From assembly GCA_963764225.1 (NCBI GenBank), contig CAVXRL010000004.1, positions 273,909 through 337,908 on the forward strand: DNA of 64,000 nt. Reading direction: 5' to 3'. Every line of letters starts with the position of its first letter. The stretch's first letter is position 1. The translations under genes were made by a program, and so were the position numbers. Source of the DNA: an uncultured Actinomycetes bacterium. Its GTDB lineage: Bacteria; Actinomycetota; Thermoleophilia; UBA2241. Below the pieces are notes generated by a model, which had not been told where the DNA came from, made no database searches, and saw nothing but the letters and a program-made list of their open reading frames with translations. Below, piece after piece: positions 2 to 5,662 of the stretch.

Positions 2-148
2 CACCTGGGCCTGGGCGACGGCGTCATCGACGCGGCGGCGGTCGTGGCGGCCGCGCGCGCCGCCGGGGCCAGCATGGTGCTCGAGCACGACAACCCGGAC
101 TCCATCAGGACGAGCCTCGCCCACCTCCGGGCGCTCGGCCTCCTGTGA
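2..148 (+). CDS. 3' end of sugar phosphate isomerase/epimerase (xylose isomerase-like TIM barrel), truncated by window start
   Basis: Frame 2 reads HLGLGDGVIDAAAVV...MVLEH...LGLL*. HLxxGxGxID...LE is the typical C-terminal motif of this family. Confidence 0.6.
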   Translation, partial: HLGLGDGVIDAAAVVAAARAAGASMVLEHDNPDSIRTSLAHLRALGLL

Positions 149-271
149 GGACCCGGATGGCCGGAGTCCGGCGCTTCGCCTGAGCACCGGCGCTCCACGC
201 GGGCGGTCCGAGCGTCGCGTGGAGCCGACAGACGATGGGCGAGGACCCCTCGAGCGAGGACCCCTCTGCGG

Positions 272-400
272 TGAGACCTCATCTCGAGGGGTCGATGTGA
301 CCACAAATCGCTTCTCACGCCGGCCGGTGTGGTCACAGACCACAACAACGCCAGACGAAGCGCTCTTGTGACCACAATCGAGCACCGAACTGTGACCACC
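272..400. repeat. 129-bp symmetric multi-box element, copy 1
   Basis: Boxes TGAGACCTCA 272-281, TGTGACCACA 296-305, TGTGGTC-ACA-GACCACA 328-344, TGTGACCACA 367-376, TGTGACCACC 391-400. Spacers are 14, 22, 22, 14. Confidence 0.85.
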
Positions 401-566
401 GGCAGAGCGACCCAGCGGCGAGAGTCGACGTCGGCGCTCGCCGGCGTGTTCAAGCTCGCTGCCACTTCCTCCGCTGCCACCGACGTCCGCGCTCGTCCGC
501 GCTCGCCTGCGTCGGCGCGGCCGTCGGCGGCCGCCGCGCCCGCCGCCGCTCACGCCTCGCGCGCCT

Positions 567-1130
567 CTACCTCGCGAGCGCCGCGCCCGCCTCGTAGGCG
601 CGGGCGCGCAGGGCCTCGTCGCGCTCCGCGCTCTCCGGATCGTTGGCGTTGACGCAGACGATGTTGTCGGCCCAGTCGAACCCGAACGATGGGTACATCG
701 CCGCCGTGTACTCGAAGTACGAGTCGTAGGCGTGGGGGTCGTCCAGGCTCTGCGAGTACACCGTGACCAGCTTCTTGGCGCCGAACCGCGGCCGCCCCTC
801 CTGGTCCATCAGCGGGAACAGCCGGTCGTAGAGATTCTTGACGGGGCCGGACATCTGCATCATGTAGACCGGCGAGCCGATCACGACCGCATCCGCCGTC
901 TTGACCTTGCGCACCGCCTCGCGCACCTCGTCGTTGATCACGCAGTCGTCCTGCATGCGGCAGGCGAAGCAACCCTGACACGCCATGAACTTCATCTTGA
1001 ACAGGGTGTAGTACTTGACCTCCGCCCCCCGCTCGCGTGCACCCCGGGCGATCAGGTCCAGCACCGTCACCGTGTTGCCGTCCTTGCGCGGACTGCCGTT
1101 GAACACCACGATCTGTCTCATCGCGCGCAC
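567..1130 (-). CDS. Flavodoxin-like iron-sulfur flavoprotein / NADPH-dependent FMN reductase family
   Basis: GSPRKDGNT FMN-binding loop, CQGCFAC-x5-C motif, IGSPVY. Start may be the ATG at 1121. Confidence 0.85.
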   Translation of the reverse strand: MRAMRQIVVFNGSPRKDGNTVTVLDLIARGARERGAEVKYYTLFKMKFMACQGCFACRMQDDCVINDEVREAVRKVKTADAVVIGSPVYMMQMSGPVKNLYDRLFPLMDQEGRPRFGAKKLVTVYSQSLDDPHAYDSYFEYTAAMYPSFGFDWADNIVCVNANDPESAERDEALRARAYEAGAALAR

Positions 1131-2066: not shown

Positions 2067-4667
2067 TCAAGCAGTCTCGTAGATGCCGCCGTCCCACTTC
2101 TCGACCTCGACCTGAGCCGTGTTGGGAGCCATGGCGCAGGCGTACTTGGACATGTACCGGTCGGGCGACAGGATGTTCATGCACCCGCCGCGGTCGGCCG
2201 ACTTGCCGGGTGTGCCCAGCGGGTCGTAGACGGCGCAGGACTCGTAGGTGTGCACGGTGCCGGGCTGGACGCGCTCGCCGACCTGGGCGCAGACGATGAC
2301 GGAGCCGCGGTCGTTGTAGGCGCGGACGAGGTCGCCCGCCTTGATGCCGCGGGCCTCGGCGTCCACCTTGTTCAGGCGGATGATCCAGTAGTACCAGCCG
2401 TCCACGAGCACGCGGTGGTCCTTGATGTCGTTCATGAAGCTGTCCTTGCCGTCACCCATGGTGTGGAACGAGAAGCGCGGGTGCGGGGAGAGCATGCCGA
2501 GCGGGTACTTCTTGGCGAGCTCGCAGGCCGGGCCCTCCCACGCGGGCACATAGGTGTGCATCGCCGGGCGGTGCTCGTCGACGTAGCCCTGGTCCTCGAA
2601 GTTCTTGATGCTCGAGGCGATGAACTCGACCTTGCCGGTGCGCGTCTGCAGGCCCTTGCGGCCCACCTGGTTGTTGAGACGCGGGCCCCAGTCGGGGGTG
2701 TCCTTCTCGCGGTCCTCGGCGAACCAGCGGAGCGCAGGCGTCTTCTTGCGCTCCGGGTTGTCCGGCACCACGAAGTAGCCCTTCTCCTTGAACTCGGCGA
2801 AGGTCATGTGCCTGGGCATGTCGGTGGCGTTGTAGTACTGCTCCACCCACTGGAGCTCGTCCTTGCCCTCCGTGAACATCGGGCCGATGCCGAGCTTCTC
2901 GGCGAGCATCGCGTAGATCTGGTAGTCCGACTTGGACTCGCCGAGGGGCTCGATGCACTTGGCCTGGAGGGAGATCACGCGGTGGTTGCACTGGCCGTAG
3001 GTGTCCGGGATGTAGCCGGAGCAGTTGGCGAACTCGCTGATGTCCCAGCGCTCGAAGTTGGTGCAGGCCGGCAGGATGATGTCCGCGAACGGCACCTCGC
3101 CCTCGAACCAGATGGACTGGCTCACGACGAACTCGAGGCCGGGATGCGTGTACATCTGCGCGTAGCGGTTGGTGGCCGTCATCGTGCCGATCCACGGGCC
3201 GCCGTACTTCCAGAGCATCTTGATCCTCGGGTAGCCCGGAGCCGGGTACTCGTACTGGTGCATCTGGTGCTGGATGTCGCCGCCGGCGAAGCCCTTGCCG
3301 GACCACTTGAACTGGCCGTCCATGATGCACTCCGGCACCTTCAGCCGCGGGATGTGCTGGCCGGCCGCGGTGTTGATGTTCGACGGGCTCGGGAACGTGG
3401 TCTTGCCGTCGAACATGCGCCAGGCGAACTTGAAGCCGGCGGCCGAGTTCTCGGCGTCGCCGGAGATGCCGCCCTCGGCGTACCCCGGGAAGTAGAAGTC
3501 GTAGTCGACCGGGGTGCCCTGCGTGGTCGAGTAGATGTTGCTGCCCGGCTTGCCCATGCCCTGCATGGTGGCGAGGGCGATCATGCCGCGGCTCCACTCG
3601 ATGCCGTGCGAGGCGCGGCAGGCGCCGCCCCAGCCGCCGAGGCCGCCGGCGGCGAGCATCGTCTTGCGCTTGGCCCACTCGCGCGCGAGCGCGCGGATCT
3701 CGCAGGCGGGCACGCCGCTCTCGGCCTCGGCCCACTCGCAGGTCTTGGGCACGCCGTCGGTCTTGCCGAGCACGTACTCGGCCCACTCGTCGAAGCCGTG
3801 GGCGTGCGTGGCCACGTACTCCTTGTCGTAGGTGTCCTCCGTGAGCCAGGTGTAGGCGATGGCGAAGGACAGCGCGTGGTCGGTGCCGATCTTGGGCGAG
3901 AACCACTTGTCGCCGATGAGGCCGGCGGTGTGGTTGTAGAACGGGTCGATGAAGACCATCTTGATGCCGAGGTCCTTCATCCACTGGCGGCGCACCGTGG
4001 ATTCGTGCGCCGCGTAGATGCCCGTGTTGGTCTCCGGGTCGGAGGACCAGAAGACGATCATCTCGGTGTTCTGCAGCGTGTCCTCGAGCAGGTCGTACTG
4101 CTCGGGGTTGCCCAGGCGCCAGCTGAAGCCCCACATGTGCATGCCGCCCCAGTGCCAGCCTTCCCAGCTGTCGGGGTTATGGTCGGCGTAGGTGAAGCCC
4201 ATCATGTTCATGAAGCGGAAGTAGGTGCTGTGGCGATAGCCCACATTGCCCCACATGTGGTGGGAGCTCGGGCTGGAGAGGATCGCCGCGGGGCCGGCCT
4301 CGCGCTTCACGCGGTTGATCTCGCTCACCACGATGTCGGTGGCCTCGTCCCAGGAGATGGGCTCGTACCCGCTGACACCGCGGTTCTGGATGTTGCGCTC
4401 GCCGCCCGGGTCGAAGTCGACGCGCTTGAGTGGCGTCATGATGCGCTTGTCGGAGTAGATCATGGACTTGAAGCCGGCGGTGTAGACCGAGTAGGTGGTC
4501 TTGCGCGGGGGCTGGAAGGCCCGCCCGCGCGCCTCGATCTTCCAGGACGACGCGTCGACCGCGTCGTCGAAGTCCATCGGCGTGATGCGGACGATCTTGC
4601 CGTCCTCGACGTAGACGAAGACCGGCCCGCCGGTCGACGAGTTCGTCAGTCGGACTACCTCTCCCAT
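2067..4667 (-). CDS. athL: Pyrogallol hydroxytransferase (transhydroxylase) large molybdopterin subunit, DMSO reductase family
   Basis: Starts MGEVVRLTNSSTGGPVFVYV after an AGGAGAGG RBS. Contains SSHHMWGNVGYRHSTYFRF, HNPDSWEGWHWGG, FPGYAEGG and FANCSGYIP, as in the recalled P. acidigallici AthL. Confidence 0.92.
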   Translation of the reverse strand: MGEVVRLTNSSTGGPVFVYVEDGKIVRITPMDFDDAVDASSWKIEARGRAFQPPRKTTYSVYTAGFKSMIYSDKRIMTPLKRVDFDPGGERNIQNRGVSGYEPISWDEATDIVVSEINRVKREAGPAAILSSPSSHHMWGNVGYRHSTYFRFMNMMGFTYADHNPDSWEGWHWGGMHMWGFSWRLGNPEQYDLLEDTLQNTEMIVFWSSDPETNTGIYAAHESTVRRQWMKDLGIKMVFIDPFYNHTAGLIGDKWFSPKIGTDHALSFAIAYTWLTEDTYDKEYVATHAHGFDEWAEYVLGKTDGVPKTCEWAEAESGVPACEIRALAREWAKRKTMLAAGGLGGWGGACRASHGIEWSRGMIALATMQGMGKPGSNIYSTTQGTPVDYDFYFPGYAEGGISGDAENSAAGFKFAWRMFDGKTTFPSPSNINTAAGQHIPRLKVPECIMDGQFKWSGKGFAGGDIQHQMHQYEYPAPGYPRIKMLWKYGGPWIGTMTATNRYAQMYTHPGLEFVVSQSIWFEGEVPFADIILPACTNFERWDISEFANCSGYIPDTYGQCNHRVISLQAKCIEPLGESKSDYQIYAMLAEKLGIGPMFTEGKDELQWVEQYYNATDMPRHMTFAEFKEKGYFVVPDNPERKKTPALRWFAEDREKDTPDWGPRLNNQVGRKGLQTRTGKVEFIASSIKNFEDQGYVDEHRPAMHTYVPAWEGPACELAKKYPLGMLSPHPRFSFHTMGDGKDSFMNDIKDHRVLVDGWYYWIIRLNKVDAEARGIKAGDLVRAYNDRGSVIVCAQVGERVQPGTVHTYESCAVYDPLGTPGKSADRGGCMNILSPDRYMSKYACAMAPNTAQVEVEKWDGGIYETA

Positions 4668-4772
4668 GTGGTCCTCTCCTTCAGCTGGTACGCGCTGGCC
4701 GGCGGTCTGTCTTGTGCTTGAGCCTGAGGGATGCGCAGAATGGCGCGGAGGCGCGGCTCTTCCCGTAGCTCG

Positions 4773-4831
4773 CATTGCGGACGTCTAGGTCACATTGCGG
4801 ACATCCTAAGCCTGCCCTCGGCCTCCGTCAA
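4773..4831 (-). promoter_or_regulatory. Sigma70-type promoter of athL with tandem operator-like repeats
   Basis: Minus strand TTGACG (4831-4826), 17 nt, TAGGAT (4808-4803). GTCCGCAATG is repeated at 4802-4793 and 4782-4773, just downstream of the -10. Confidence 0.65.
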
Positions 4832-4907
4832 GACTCCTGGGACACGGTCGACTTGAAGGAGATCGCCCGGCGGACCGAGGCAGAGAGCCTCGACGGGCGC
4901 TCTGACC

Positions 4908-5036
4908 GGTGACCATATCTCACACCACCGATGGGGTCACAATTCCGGCCGCACTCGATCAGTTGTGGTCACCGGCCACATTCGCCCCCTCCGCCGGCGA
5001 GATGTGACCACAACACAGGCGCTATCTGAGACCTCA
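4908..5036. repeat. 129-bp symmetric multi-box element, copy 2 (inverted relative to copy 1)
   Basis: Boxes GGTGACCATA 4908-4917, TGGGGTCACA 4932-4941, TGTGGTC-ACC-GGCCACA 4964-4980, TGTGACCACA 5003-5012, TGAGACCTCA 5027-5036. Spacers are 14, 22, 22, 14. Confidence 0.85.
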
Positions 5037-5066
5037 GCGAGAGCGGCCCTGCAGGCACTCCCGCCG

Positions 5067-5178
5067 CCGGCGGCGCTCCGCGGGGGGCGGCCGGGCAGCG
5101 CTCCCCGGTGGGTCCGCCGGGCGGCGCTCCCGGGTCCGCCGGGCGGCGTTCCGCGGTGTGCCCGCCCGGCGGCGCTCC
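5067..5178. repeat. Degenerate GC-rich short repeats (about 5 copies of GGCGGCGCTCC-like)
   Basis: ggcggcgctcc / ggcagcgctcc / ggcggcgttcc variants recur at irregular spacing. Confidence 0.45.
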
Positions 5179-5188
5179 GGAGCGGGCG

Positions 5189-5662
5189 TCAGTCCTCGAG
5201 GATCTCGATGAGCTCTTCTTTGAGGTCGCGCAGGCGCAGCGAGACCAGGCCGGCCAGCTTCTTCATCACCTGGTAGCCGGCCTCGGGCTCGCGCAGCAGG
5301 ATGGCCTCGACCTCGTCGGCTGAGATCGCGGCCACGGCGCTGTCCTCCAGCGCCCAGGCGGTGGCCACGTAGACGTGCGGCGCCACGACGGACGACCATC
5401 CGGAGATCCCGTACTGGCCCACCTCCACCACCTCGACGACGCGGCCGGACGGCGCGGCCAGCCTGATCGCCAGCCTCCCGCTGGCGACCACGAACAGGCT
5501 GTGGGCCGCGGTGTCCGCGTCGAACAGGGTCTCACCTTCCTTCACCGTGACCATGCGGCCGTGCTCGGCCAGGGCCTCGATCTGTGCCTCGCTCAGCGGC
5601 TCGAGCAGCTCGCAGTGCGCGAAGGTGCTCTCGACGGAAAGGTCGGCGGTCGGCGGTCTCAT
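5189..5662 (-). CDS. Stand-alone cyclic nucleotide-binding (Crp/Fnr cNMP) domain protein without an HTH
   Basis: LLEPLSEAQI...GETLF...LFVVASG...ISGWSSVV...ATAWALED. At 157 aa it ends after the C-helix. Confidence 0.75.
   Translation of the reverse strand: MRPPTADLSVESTFAHCELLEPLSEAQIEALAEHGRMVTVKEGETLFDADTAAHSLFVVASGRLAIRLAAPSGRVVEVVEVGQYGISGWSSVVAPHVYVATAWALEDSAVAAISADEVEAILLREPEAGYQVMKKLAGLVSLRLRDLKEELIEILED

What the first reader, a model, noticed from the sequence alone, without database searches (positions are those of the whole stretch)
272..400. 129-bp dyad-symmetric box array whose geometry is conserved while its spacers are not
Seen: five near-palindromic boxes (consensus about TGTGRYCACA) are arranged 10-14-10-22-17-22-10-14-10 around a central inverted repeat TGTGGTC-N3-GACCACA. 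A second element at 4908-5036 has exactly the same box positions and total length, yet its spacers show no obvious similarity. Each copy also has short terminal inverted flanks (CTCTGCGGTG...CACCGGCAGAG; CGCTCT...AGAGCG). Inference: selection acts on box sequence and exact spacing (24- and 32-bp steps), as expected for a multi-protein DNA site such as a recombination/synapse site, a mobile-element end, a REP/BIME-like unit or a nucleoid-organising array. I do not recognise it as a described element, and no cognate recombinase or nuclease is in the window.
Basis: partly seen in the sequence, partly recalled or inferred. Interest (0 to 1): 0.85.

Follow-up and report, generated by a model that had tools for sequence, protein, structure and literature searches.

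The report
Small mobile repeat with spaced protein-binding boxes
This is a rare 148-base non-coding repeat, found between genes in a few soil Thermoleophilia species, that comes and goes between close relatives yet keeps its short palindromic boxes and their spacing while everything between them mutates freely.

Summary
Window 272-400 and 4908-5036 are two of six copies in this genome of a ~148-bp unit: CNCTCTG-N2/3-box-14-box-22-TGTGGNC-N3-GNCCACA-22-box-14-box-N3/2-CAGAGNG, where box = TGTGRYCACA. A sister species has 11 copies. Four further species of the same 54-species genus hold variants with other box centres or no central palindrome. Nothing convincing turned up in 150 other genomes of the class or in the three public contig collections.

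All copies are intergenic, usually at gene 3' ends, and their neighbouring genes are unrelated. In four orthologous pairs the boxes are 91% identical and the spacers 56%. The inner boxes lie 60-62 bp apart in all 16 measured copies. Copy e6 here, and f6 and f8 in the sister species, face clean empty sites in relatives. The block holding e1 is also missing from relatives.

Best reading: a non-autonomous, MITE-like element made of two inverted arms of repeated protein-binding sites, like fused transposon ends, and still recognised by a protein. No target-site duplication, transposase, RAYT or binding protein was found. I rate it a new variant of a known kind, of moderate interest.

The parts
262..409 (.). 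Element copy e1, whole unit (148 bp) from CCCTCTG to CAGAGCG
   Evidence: (90 bits with model R1).
262..268 (+). e1 left terminus CCCTCTG
   Evidence: An equivalent terminus occurs in 16 of 16 measured copies.
272..281 (.). e1 outer left box TGAGACCTCA
296..305 (.). e1 inner left box TGTGACCACA
328..344 (.). e1 central palindrome TGTGGTC-ACA-GACCACA
   Evidence: I13.
367..376 (.). e1 inner right box TGTGACCACA
391..400 (.). e1 outer right box TGTGACCACC
403..409 (+). e1 right terminus CAGAGCG
142..566 (.). 425-bp intergenic block holding e1, lying between two convergent genes. It is missing from relatives, where the two genes almost touch.
   Evidence: G003, G062, G016 and G011 have almost no spacer, and G018 about 100 bp; contigs of runs X4 and X18 join 141 to 567 with 16-18 other letters between.
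4898..5045 (.). Element copy e2, whole unit (148 bp) from CGCTCTG to GAGAGCG
   Evidence: (88.7 bits). Covered by a 2389-base contig of run X1.
4908..4917 (.). e2 outer left box GGTGACCATA
4932..4941 (.). e2 inner left box TGGGGTCACA
4964..4980 (.). e2 central palindrome TGTGGTC-ACC-GGCCACA
5003..5012 (.). e2 inner right box TGTGACCACA
5027..5036 (.). e2 outer right box TGAGACCTCA
567..1130 (-). Neighbour of e1: FMN reductase-like gene whose 3' end faces the element
   Evidence: PF03358, 1.2e-23.
2067..4775 (-). Neighbour of e2: molybdopterin oxidoreductase large subunit whose 5' end and conserved upstream repeats face the element
5189..5662 (-). Neighbour of e2: 157-aa protein with only a cyclic-nucleotide-binding domain, whose 3' end faces the element
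   Evidence: PF00027, 2.2e-13.

Best explanation
It is a non-autonomous, MITE-like mobile DNA element of about 148 bp. It consists of two inverted arms. Each arm starts with the terminus CNCTCTG. It then carries an outer and an inner copy of a 10-bp site (TGTG-NN-CACA, mostly TGTGGTCACA in one arm and its complement in the other). In most copies each arm ends in one half of a central 7-N3-7 palindrome. That gives three like-oriented sites per arm, the arrangement of two transposon ends with terminal and subterminal binding sites joined back to back.

What is shown: the family exists, it is non-coding and intergenic, it differs in presence between close relatives, and its boxes and spacing are under purifying selection while the spacers drift.

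What is inferred: a sequence-specific, probably dimeric or oligomeric DNA-binding protein still binds the boxes. I think this is most likely a transposase supplied in trans from an unassembled element. The protein would bridge the two arms across the fixed 61-bp gap, and this complex would move the unit or keep it in place.
For: Family and layout: there are six copies in this genome and 11 in one sister species, with a sharp score gap and no decayed relics. The layout is 14/22/22/14 in 12 of 16 copies. The inner boxes are 61 bp apart in 13 of 16 copies and 60-62 bp in all 16. The same 60-61 bp gap holds in two of the variants of G059 that lack the central palindrome, and by my count of the printed sequence it is 61 in copy f11.

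Termini and orientation: CTCTG and CAGAG lie 144 bp apart in 10 of 16 copies. Box orientation is biased towards inverted arms: by my reading of the base counts, about 21 oriented, 8 opposite and 3 symmetric among 32 inner boxes.

Selection: boxes are 208/228 identical in orthologous pairs, spacers 136/244 and outer flanks 166/400. Four-fold sites of the flanking genes are 676/865 identical.

Gain and loss: e6 is absent from the ilvC-serA spacer of G009, G003 and G066. f6 and f8 of G009 face empty sites in this genome. The e1 block is absent from 4-5 relatives and is skipped by contigs of two runs.

Position: all copies are intergenic with unrelated neighbours. By my own ORF calls, 7 of 13 independent loci lie between convergent genes and 12 of 13 abut at least one gene 3' end.

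Distribution: the architecture pattern hits 5 of 54 genus members, and the reversed control hits 0 of 54.

Definition: a MITE review gives under 500 bp, TIRs of 4-30 bp and flanking direct repeats that fade with age (passages of PMC10969869).
Against: No target-site duplication was detectable at any offset or length tried; the best identity was 41%.

No autonomous partner was found. There are no solo arms in this genome or in G009. No IS-like repeat carries the boxes. rve is absent from G009, G059 and G066. RAYT and ISL3 transposases are absent from all five genomes tested.

Copies within one genome share only the boxes and a weak extension of them. Spacer identity among paralogues averages 0.37. 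That is unlike the near-identical copies of a recent MITE burst.

Purifying selection at fixed orthologous sites is not what a purely selfish, decaying element predicts.

Inserted blocks are larger than the unit and vary in size (about 190 to 425 bp), so the true mobile boundaries are unknown.

The conserved CTCTG lies outside the terminal TGTG box, unlike the TG...CA termini of Tn7/Mu-type ends (recalled, not tested).
Confidence: 0.5

Rival explanations
1. It is a host-selected nucleoprotein site rather than a transposon. In this reading it is a modular array bound cooperatively by a chromosomal DNA-binding protein. It would act at gene ends as a transcription roadblock or insulator, or as a chromosome-structuring site. 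New copies would arise rarely, and each would be kept by selection on the host.
For: Boxes and geometry are conserved in place, while spacers and flanks are close to randomised. There are no decayed relics: in this genome scores drop from 85-92 bits straight to 15 bits or less. Copy number is low and stable (6 and 11). Copies sit preferentially between convergent genes or after terminators. The symmetric 24/32/7/32/24 centre-to-centre spacing, computed, suits cooperative binding.
Against: The family is present in only 5-6 of 54 species of the genus and in 0 of 150 other genomes of the class. That is odd for a core chromosomal function. Presence differs between sister species at clean empty sites. 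The discrete unit with inverted termini looks like something that moves as a unit. No candidate protein was identified.
Confidence: 0.25
2. It is an operator array of a transcription factor regulon, for example a CRP/FNR-like protein recognising TGTG...CACA half-sites, controlling the adjacent genes.
For: The half-site TGTGR resembles the CRP-type TGTGA (recalled). e2 lies upstream of an oxidoreductase operon and next to a gene encoding a cyclic-nucleotide-binding domain.
Against: 7 of 13 loci lie between convergent genes, where there is no promoter to control. Neighbouring genes share no function. The oxidoreductase has its own conserved upstream repeats in relatives that lack the element. 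The cNMP gene is present in many genus members without the element.
Confidence: 0.05
3. It acts as RNA or single-stranded DNA: a structured transcript, terminator or hairpin element like ERIC or REP, with the spacers paired.
For: Folding energies are 2-6 SD below mononucleotide shuffles. Copies sit at gene 3' ends.
Against: Symmetric spacer positions are complementary in 176 of 575 cases (0.31). That is lower than the 0.37 seen when spacers of different copies are paired. The low energies therefore come from the palindromic boxes alone, which the shuffles destroy. No Rfam family matched in the window.
Confidence: 0.05
4. It is a cluster of DnaA boxes (datA/DARS-like) or another replication-control site.
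For: TGTGGNCA loosely resembles the reverse complement of the actinobacterial DnaA box (motif recalled). Two central palindromes read TGTGGAC.
Against: The origin region of this genome uses TGTGGATAA, TGTGGAAAA and TGTGGACGA type boxes and holds no element-type box cluster. Most element boxes have A or G where the DnaA box needs T. The distribution within the genus is patchy.
Confidence: 0.03

Closest known systems
Bacterial MITEs (for example Correia elements of Neisseria, RUP, MITEAba12)
   Same: Under 500 bp, non-coding, with terminal inverted repeats. Dispersed in intergenic DNA and variable in presence between close relatives. Some carry a host-protein site in the middle (IHF in Correia, per passages of PMC10969869).
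   Different: Copies share only the 10-bp boxes, the termini and the geometry, not the full length. No target-site duplication, no known parent IS, a GC-rich setting and very low copy number.
Transposon ends with several transposase-binding sites per end (Tn7 TnsB sites, Mu L1-L3/R1-R3, IS21, Tn402). Recalled, not tested against sequences.
   Same: Two or three like-oriented sites beginning TGT in each arm, inverted between arms, with fixed spacing and free intervening sequence.
   Different: The arms are fused with nothing between them. A conserved CTCTG lies outside the last box. No rve transposase is present in 3 of the 4 element-bearing genomes tested. No 5-bp duplication.
REP/BIME and REPIN elements with RAYT transposases
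   Same: Short intergenic units at gene 3' ends with dyad symmetry, long persistence and vertical inheritance (abstract of PMC3337134 in the listing).
   Different: No RAYT (0 of 5 genomes). No stable stem-loop between the arms. I saw no GTAG-type head in the termini (motif recalled).
ERIC/IRU 127-bp imperfect palindromes of enterobacteria
   Same: Similar size, intergenic position, and copy number that varies by species (abstract of PMC2759123 in the listing).
   Different: ERIC copies are alike along their whole length and fold as RNA (recalled). Here only the boxes are alike.
Plasmid centromeres and resolvase res sites (parC of R1, res of gamma-delta). Recalled.
   Same: Several short binding sites at fixed spacing over about 110-150 bp, symmetric around a centre, bound cooperatively.
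   Different: Those occur once per replicon beside their own gene. These are dispersed and have no linked gene. No serine recombinase was found in the genome.

Membership tests
MITE | Short (under 500 bp) and without coding capacity | tested here: met
   The unit is 148 bp and CTCTG to CAGAG is 142-149 bp. Definition from passages of PMC10969869.
MITE | Terminal inverted repeats | tested here: met
   CNCTCTG-N2/3-TGTGRYCACA occurs at both ends, inverted, in 16 of 16 measured copies.
MITE | Target-site duplication flanking the unit | tested here: not met
   No direct repeat at offsets 0-8 and lengths 2-9; the best identity was 41%. The review notes that duplications fade in old copies.
MITE | Several dispersed copies and insertion polymorphism | tested here: met
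   6 and 11 copies. Empty sites for e6, f6, f8 and the e1 block.
MITE | Parent autonomous element with the same ends | tested here: not met
   No solo arms. Nothing beyond chance-level matches in the genome, metagenome or viral contig collections. The assemblies are 64-91% complete, so absence is not proven.
REP/BIME/REPIN | Associated RAYT (Y1 transposase) gene | tested here: not met
   PF01797 found in 0 of 5 genomes; the control search hit 6 of 14 well-known genomes.
REP/BIME/REPIN | Each unit folds into a stable stem-loop | tested here: not met
   Spacer complementarity is 0.31 against 0.37 in the control.
Tn7/Mu-type transposon ends | Several like-oriented transposase sites per end, inverted between ends | tested here: inconclusive
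   There is an orientation bias, roughly 21 oriented to 8 opposite at inner boxes and 17 to 7 at outer boxes by my reading. The boxes are near-palindromic and the copies are not independent.
Tn7/Mu-type transposon ends | rve-type DDE transposase in the genome | tested here: not met
   One rve frame in G000 (C7:29676-31265), with no boxes near it. None in G009, G059 or G066.
Transcription-factor operator | Position upstream of the regulated genes | tested here: not met
   7 of 13 loci lie between convergent genes.
Rfam RNA families | Match to a curated covariance model | tested here: not met
   Only two tRNAs in the window reach gathering score.

The most novel reading that the evidence does not exclude
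The unit is a portable, self-contained nucleoprotein module. A lineage-specific protein would assemble on four to six TGTG-NN-CACA sites held at fixed distances (24 bp within an arm, 61 bp between arms). The host would keep each copy because the complex does something useful at gene ends, such as insulation, a roadblock or chromosome structuring. The central dinucleotide of the box would co-evolve with the protein between species: GT/AC/GC here, CA/TG in G054, CG in G003. This would be a mobile regulatory or architectural cassette, not a decaying transposon.
Probability: 0.2. Interest if true: 0.7.

Novelty: new variant of a known kind. Interest (0 to 1): 0.45.

Why it matters
Small non-coding repeats are hardly described in uncultured, GC-rich Actinomycetota such as Thermoleophilia.

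This family is unusual in what it keeps. It keeps only short boxes, inverted termini and exact distances, over a time in which the spacers have nearly randomised. It also still appears and disappears between sister species.

That combination points to a protein that reads geometry as well as sequence. It gives a compact natural test case of about 150 bp and four to six sites for how multi-site DNA-protein assemblies constrain DNA.

If the binding protein is a transposase, the element marks an undescribed transposon family. If it is a host protein, it is an example of a mobile architectural or regulatory cassette.

In practice, such units are useful markers of strain-level variation in soil metagenomes.

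Tried and rejected
Regulon operator: rejected on position and on unrelated neighbours.

Structured RNA: no Rfam match, and the spacers are not complementary.

DnaA-box cluster: the origin region uses other boxes and has no cluster.

Inversion of the inner segment between orthologues: no support; all orientations of e1/f7 are at random level.

Exchange of spacers between paralogous copies: no non-orthologous spacer pair stands out beyond a weak shared consensus next to the boxes.

Sub-family link between e3, e6 and f6: spacer identity is 0.51-0.53 against a background of 0.37 +/- 0.06. This is too weak to use.

Target-site duplications: none.

Recurrent neighbouring gene: none in all-against-all BLASTP of the flanking ORFs of 21 loci; only orthologues and one weak pair matched.

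Transposases and recombinases:
- rve occurs once in G000 only, in a low-GC island without boxes.
- DDE_Tnp_1 occurs in G000 only. Its 876-bp two-copy IS has unrelated ends.
- Y1_Tnp 0 of 5 genomes, ISL3 0 of 5, Resolvase 0 of 1.
- There are seven Phage_integrase matches and none lies in the window.

Wider searches:
- The genome contigs pattern scan gave 10 stretches. Seven came from one MAG titled 'uncultured Thermoleophilia bacterium'. Three were singletons, in a Bacteroidales, a Paracoccaceae and a Terriglobia MAG. Of those three, only the Bacteroidales one scored with model R1, at chance level.
- The metagenome-contig scan gave 17 stretches. The 9 that model R1 scored at all reached only 11-14.5 bits, so these are chance matches.
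- The viral-contig scan gave one AT-rich chance match.
- The model R1 search of the class found 0 of 150 other genomes.

Sequencing runs: no run held more than 0.20 of the sampled words. The RNA run X18 gave almost no cover over 235-468 and none over 4681-5148. This says nothing about transcription.

Papers: a full-text search for the box sequences found only primers and unrelated uses among the 25 of 733 papers listed. A search combining Thermoleophilia with three repeat terms listed no paper that mentions Thermoleophilia. So I found no description in print, within those two searches. Supplementary files were not consulted.

Not attempted: structure or complex prediction (no candidate protein), and the large protein searches.

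Full report
**What is there**

The window is G000:C4:273909-337908, from a 3.09-Mb genome of 71% G+C in nine contigs. Each stretch has four 10-bp near-palindromes of the form TGTGRYCACA and a central TGTGGTC-N3-GRCCACA, laid out 10-14-10-22-17-22-10-14-10.

This is far from chance. The exact 10-mer occurs 4 times in the window against 0.14 expected and only 9 times in the genome. I scored the whole 129-bp layout at every genome position. That gives a background ending at 32 of 54, with one position at 34, and five outliers at 37-51.

Reading the flanks of the solitary boxes showed a sixth copy with one 21-bp spacer. A sequence-only covariance model built from the six copies finds exactly these six at 85-92 bits. 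The next match is at 15 bits.

**Anatomy**

I measured 16 of the 17 copies in this genome and in its sister species G009. The layout fit failed on copy f11.

- The spacers are 14/22/22/14 in 12 copies. They differ by one base in one spacer in the other 4.
- The two inner boxes are 61 bp apart in 13 copies and 60-62 bp apart in all 16.
- Outside the outer boxes lie inverted termini, CNCTCTG-N2/3 and N3/2-CAGAGNG. CTCTG and CAGAG are 144 bp apart in 10 of 16 copies. The unit is therefore about 148 bp: window 262-409 and 4898-5045.
- Base counts with the arms oriented show that the left-arm boxes are mostly TGTGGTCACA and the right-arm boxes mostly its complement. By my reading of those counts, inner boxes split roughly 21 oriented, 8 opposite and 3 symmetric.
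- So each arm carries two boxes plus half of the central palindrome in like orientation, and the arms are inverted copies of each other.
- The boxes extend weakly into the spacers as A/T-rich shoulders. This explains why paralogous spacers are 0.37-0.40 identical rather than the 0.28 expected from composition.

**Where it occurs**

Model R1 found the family in 4 of the 54 species genomes of the genus. They are this one (6 copies), G009 (11 copies), and G059 and G066 with weak single matches.

A box-agnostic architecture pattern (terminus, box, 13-14, box) hits only G000, G009, G059, G066 and G054. The reversed control hits none of the 54.

The variants are instructive.
- G059 has TGCGACCACA outer boxes, 13-bp outer spacers and no central palindrome. 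In the two copies where all four boxes could be placed, the inner boxes still lie 60-61 bp apart.
- Copy f11 of G009 has a single central box. By my count of the printed sequence, its inner boxes are again 61 bp apart.
- G054 uses TGTGCACACA, and a weak G003 locus uses TGTGCGCACA between the same termini.

So TGTG..CACA, the termini and the distances define the family. The central dinucleotide and the centre of the unit vary by lineage.

Searches outside the genus were negative.
- None of 150 other genomes of the class matched at E <= 1e-5.
- A pattern scan of 185,579 species genomes returned 10 stretches. Seven came from one MAG titled 'uncultured Thermoleophilia bacterium' and three were unrelated singletons.
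- Scans of metagenome and viral contigs gave only chance-level matches.

The class name rests on that one record title.

**Context**

Every copy is intergenic. The neighbours include FMN reductase, molybdopterin oxidoreductase, a cNMP-binding protein, ilvC/serA, transketolase, DUF72, a Fic protein, M20 peptidases, a PIN toxin, UvrD, an ECF sigma factor and others. No gene family recurs next to the copies.

By my own ORF calls, 7 of 13 independent loci lie between convergent genes, 5 between tandem genes and 1 between divergent genes. This rules out an operator role for most copies.

**Selection**

Four copies are orthologous between G000 and G009: e1/f7, e2/f2, e4/f1 and e5/f3.
- Within these pairs the boxes are 208/228 identical.
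- The spacers are 136/244 identical.
- The 50-bp outer flanks are 166/400 identical.
- Boxes against spacers gives Fisher p = 3.7e-19.
- Four-fold degenerate sites of the flanking genes are 676/865 identical. These sites are themselves constrained by the 96% GC3 bias.

In e1/f7 the two 22-bp spacers are 4/22 and 6/22 identical, and the surrounding intergenic DNA cannot be aligned. Even so, all four spacer lengths are unchanged.

I checked three other explanations and found no support for any. These were inversion of the inner segment, exchange of spacers among copies and pairing of spacers in a hairpin. The boxes and their distances are therefore kept by purifying selection at fixed sites.

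**Gain and loss**

- Copy e6 sits just after the ilvC terminator-like hairpin, in a 258-bp ilvC-serA spacer. The same spacer is 54 bp in G009, 6 bp in G003 and 45 bp in G066, with no element.
- Copies f6 and f8 of G009 face empty sites in this genome.
- The 425-bp block 142-566 that holds e1 lies between convergent genes. These genes nearly touch in G003, G062, G016 and G011.
- Contigs from a soil DNA run and a soil RNA run join 141 to 567 with 16-18 other letters between. These contigs are about 85-92% alike, so they come from related organisms.
- A contig of a third run covers e2 at about 93% identity.
- G059 has a degenerate variant at the e2 position.

The unit thus appears and disappears on the time scale of species divergence. 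The inserted blocks are larger than the unit and vary in size, and no target-site duplication is detectable. The exact mobile boundaries and the mechanism therefore remain open.

**Partner**

I found no cognate enzyme.
- There are no solo arms in G000 or G009.
- There are no multi-copy IS longer than 900 bp.
- G000 has one rve frame, in a low-GC island without boxes. G009, G059 and G066 have none.
- A two-copy IS with a DDE_Tnp_1 domain has unrelated ends.
- RAYT, ISL3 transposase and serine recombinase were not found.
- Tyrosine recombinases are present, but none lies in the window.

These assemblies are 64-91% complete, and mobile DNA is often unassembled. Absence is therefore not shown.

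**Interpretation**

The best reading (about 0.5) is a non-autonomous, MITE-like element built from two inverted arms of repeated protein-binding sites. The arrangement resembles transposon ends with terminal and subterminal sites, fused back to back, and a protein still recognises it.

The main rival (about 0.25) is that the array is kept for a host function at gene ends and is only occasionally copied. The two readings are not exclusive, and the in-place conservation favours some present-day binding under either.

Operator, RNA and DnaA-box readings are each unlikely (0.03-0.05), for the reasons given above and.

**Comparison and novelty**

The unit meets the size, TIR, copy-number and polymorphism criteria of MITEs as summarised in the passages I read of PMC10969869. 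It fails the target-duplication and parent-element criteria.

It is not a REP/BIME in the strict sense. It differs from described bacterial MITEs in conserving only boxes and geometry.

Two full-text searches found no description of the motif or of such repeats in Thermoleophilia.

I rate it a new variant of a known kind, with moderate interest.

Noticed in passing
window 4770-4809: Two tandem 20-bp direct repeats (TCGCATTGCGGAC... / TCACATTGCGGAC...) upstream of the molybdopterin oxidoreductase gene. They are conserved in at least seven other genus members that lack the element (G003, G062, G016, G018, G011, G044, G056) and in G059. This is probably the operon's real operator or promoter region.
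   Followed up: partly
window 5064-5179: GC-rich tandem repeat (period 26/48, about 2-5 copies) between e2 and the stop of the cNMP-domain gene. A related contig of run X1 skips 5064-5161.
   Followed up: partly
window 5189-5662 (-): A 157-aa protein with only a cyclic-nucleotide-binding domain and no DNA-binding domain. It is conserved across many genus members.
   Followed up: no
L003:3803-4273 and just upstream; element e5 at G000:C9:253865-254013: A PIN-domain (VapC-like) gene follows a short frame that reads like a Phd/YefM-type antitoxin. That is my reading, not a tool result. Its GTG start appears to overlap the right terminus CAGAGCG of e5, which may explain why that flank is 43/50 identical in G009.
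   Followed up: partly
G000:C7:24000-35000: A low-GC island (0.58-0.68 against 0.71) with the genome's only rve-type transposase frame (529 aa), fragments of tyrosine recombinases and local repeats.
   Followed up: partly
G000:C8:253440-254279 and C9:65036-65907: A two-copy, 876-bp repeat (93.7% identical) encoding a DDE_Tnp_1 transposase. One copy is bounded by a CTAG-containing inverted repeat. Its ends are unrelated to the element.
   Followed up: partly
G000:C9:406900-407520 and 409820-410180: Likely replication origin regions on either side of the frames I took for dnaA and its upstream neighbour (gene names are my reading, not a tool result). They hold TGTGGATAA, TGTGGAAAA and TGTGGACGA type boxes.
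   Followed up: partly
L010:1708-1800 (G000:C2, upstream of serA): About 90 bp upstream of serA are conserved in G009 and G003, while the DNA before them is not. This is a possible leader or regulatory region.
   Followed up: no
L077 (G056:C4:269850-270700): At the position orthologous to e2, G056 has no element. By eye the sequence there resembles a tRNA gene; I did not run a tRNA finder.
   Followed up: no
window 244-254 and 283-293: A perfect 11-bp inverted repeat (GACCCCTCGAG / CTCGAGGGGTC) brackets the left terminus and outer box of e1. It is not seen in other copies.
   Followed up: no
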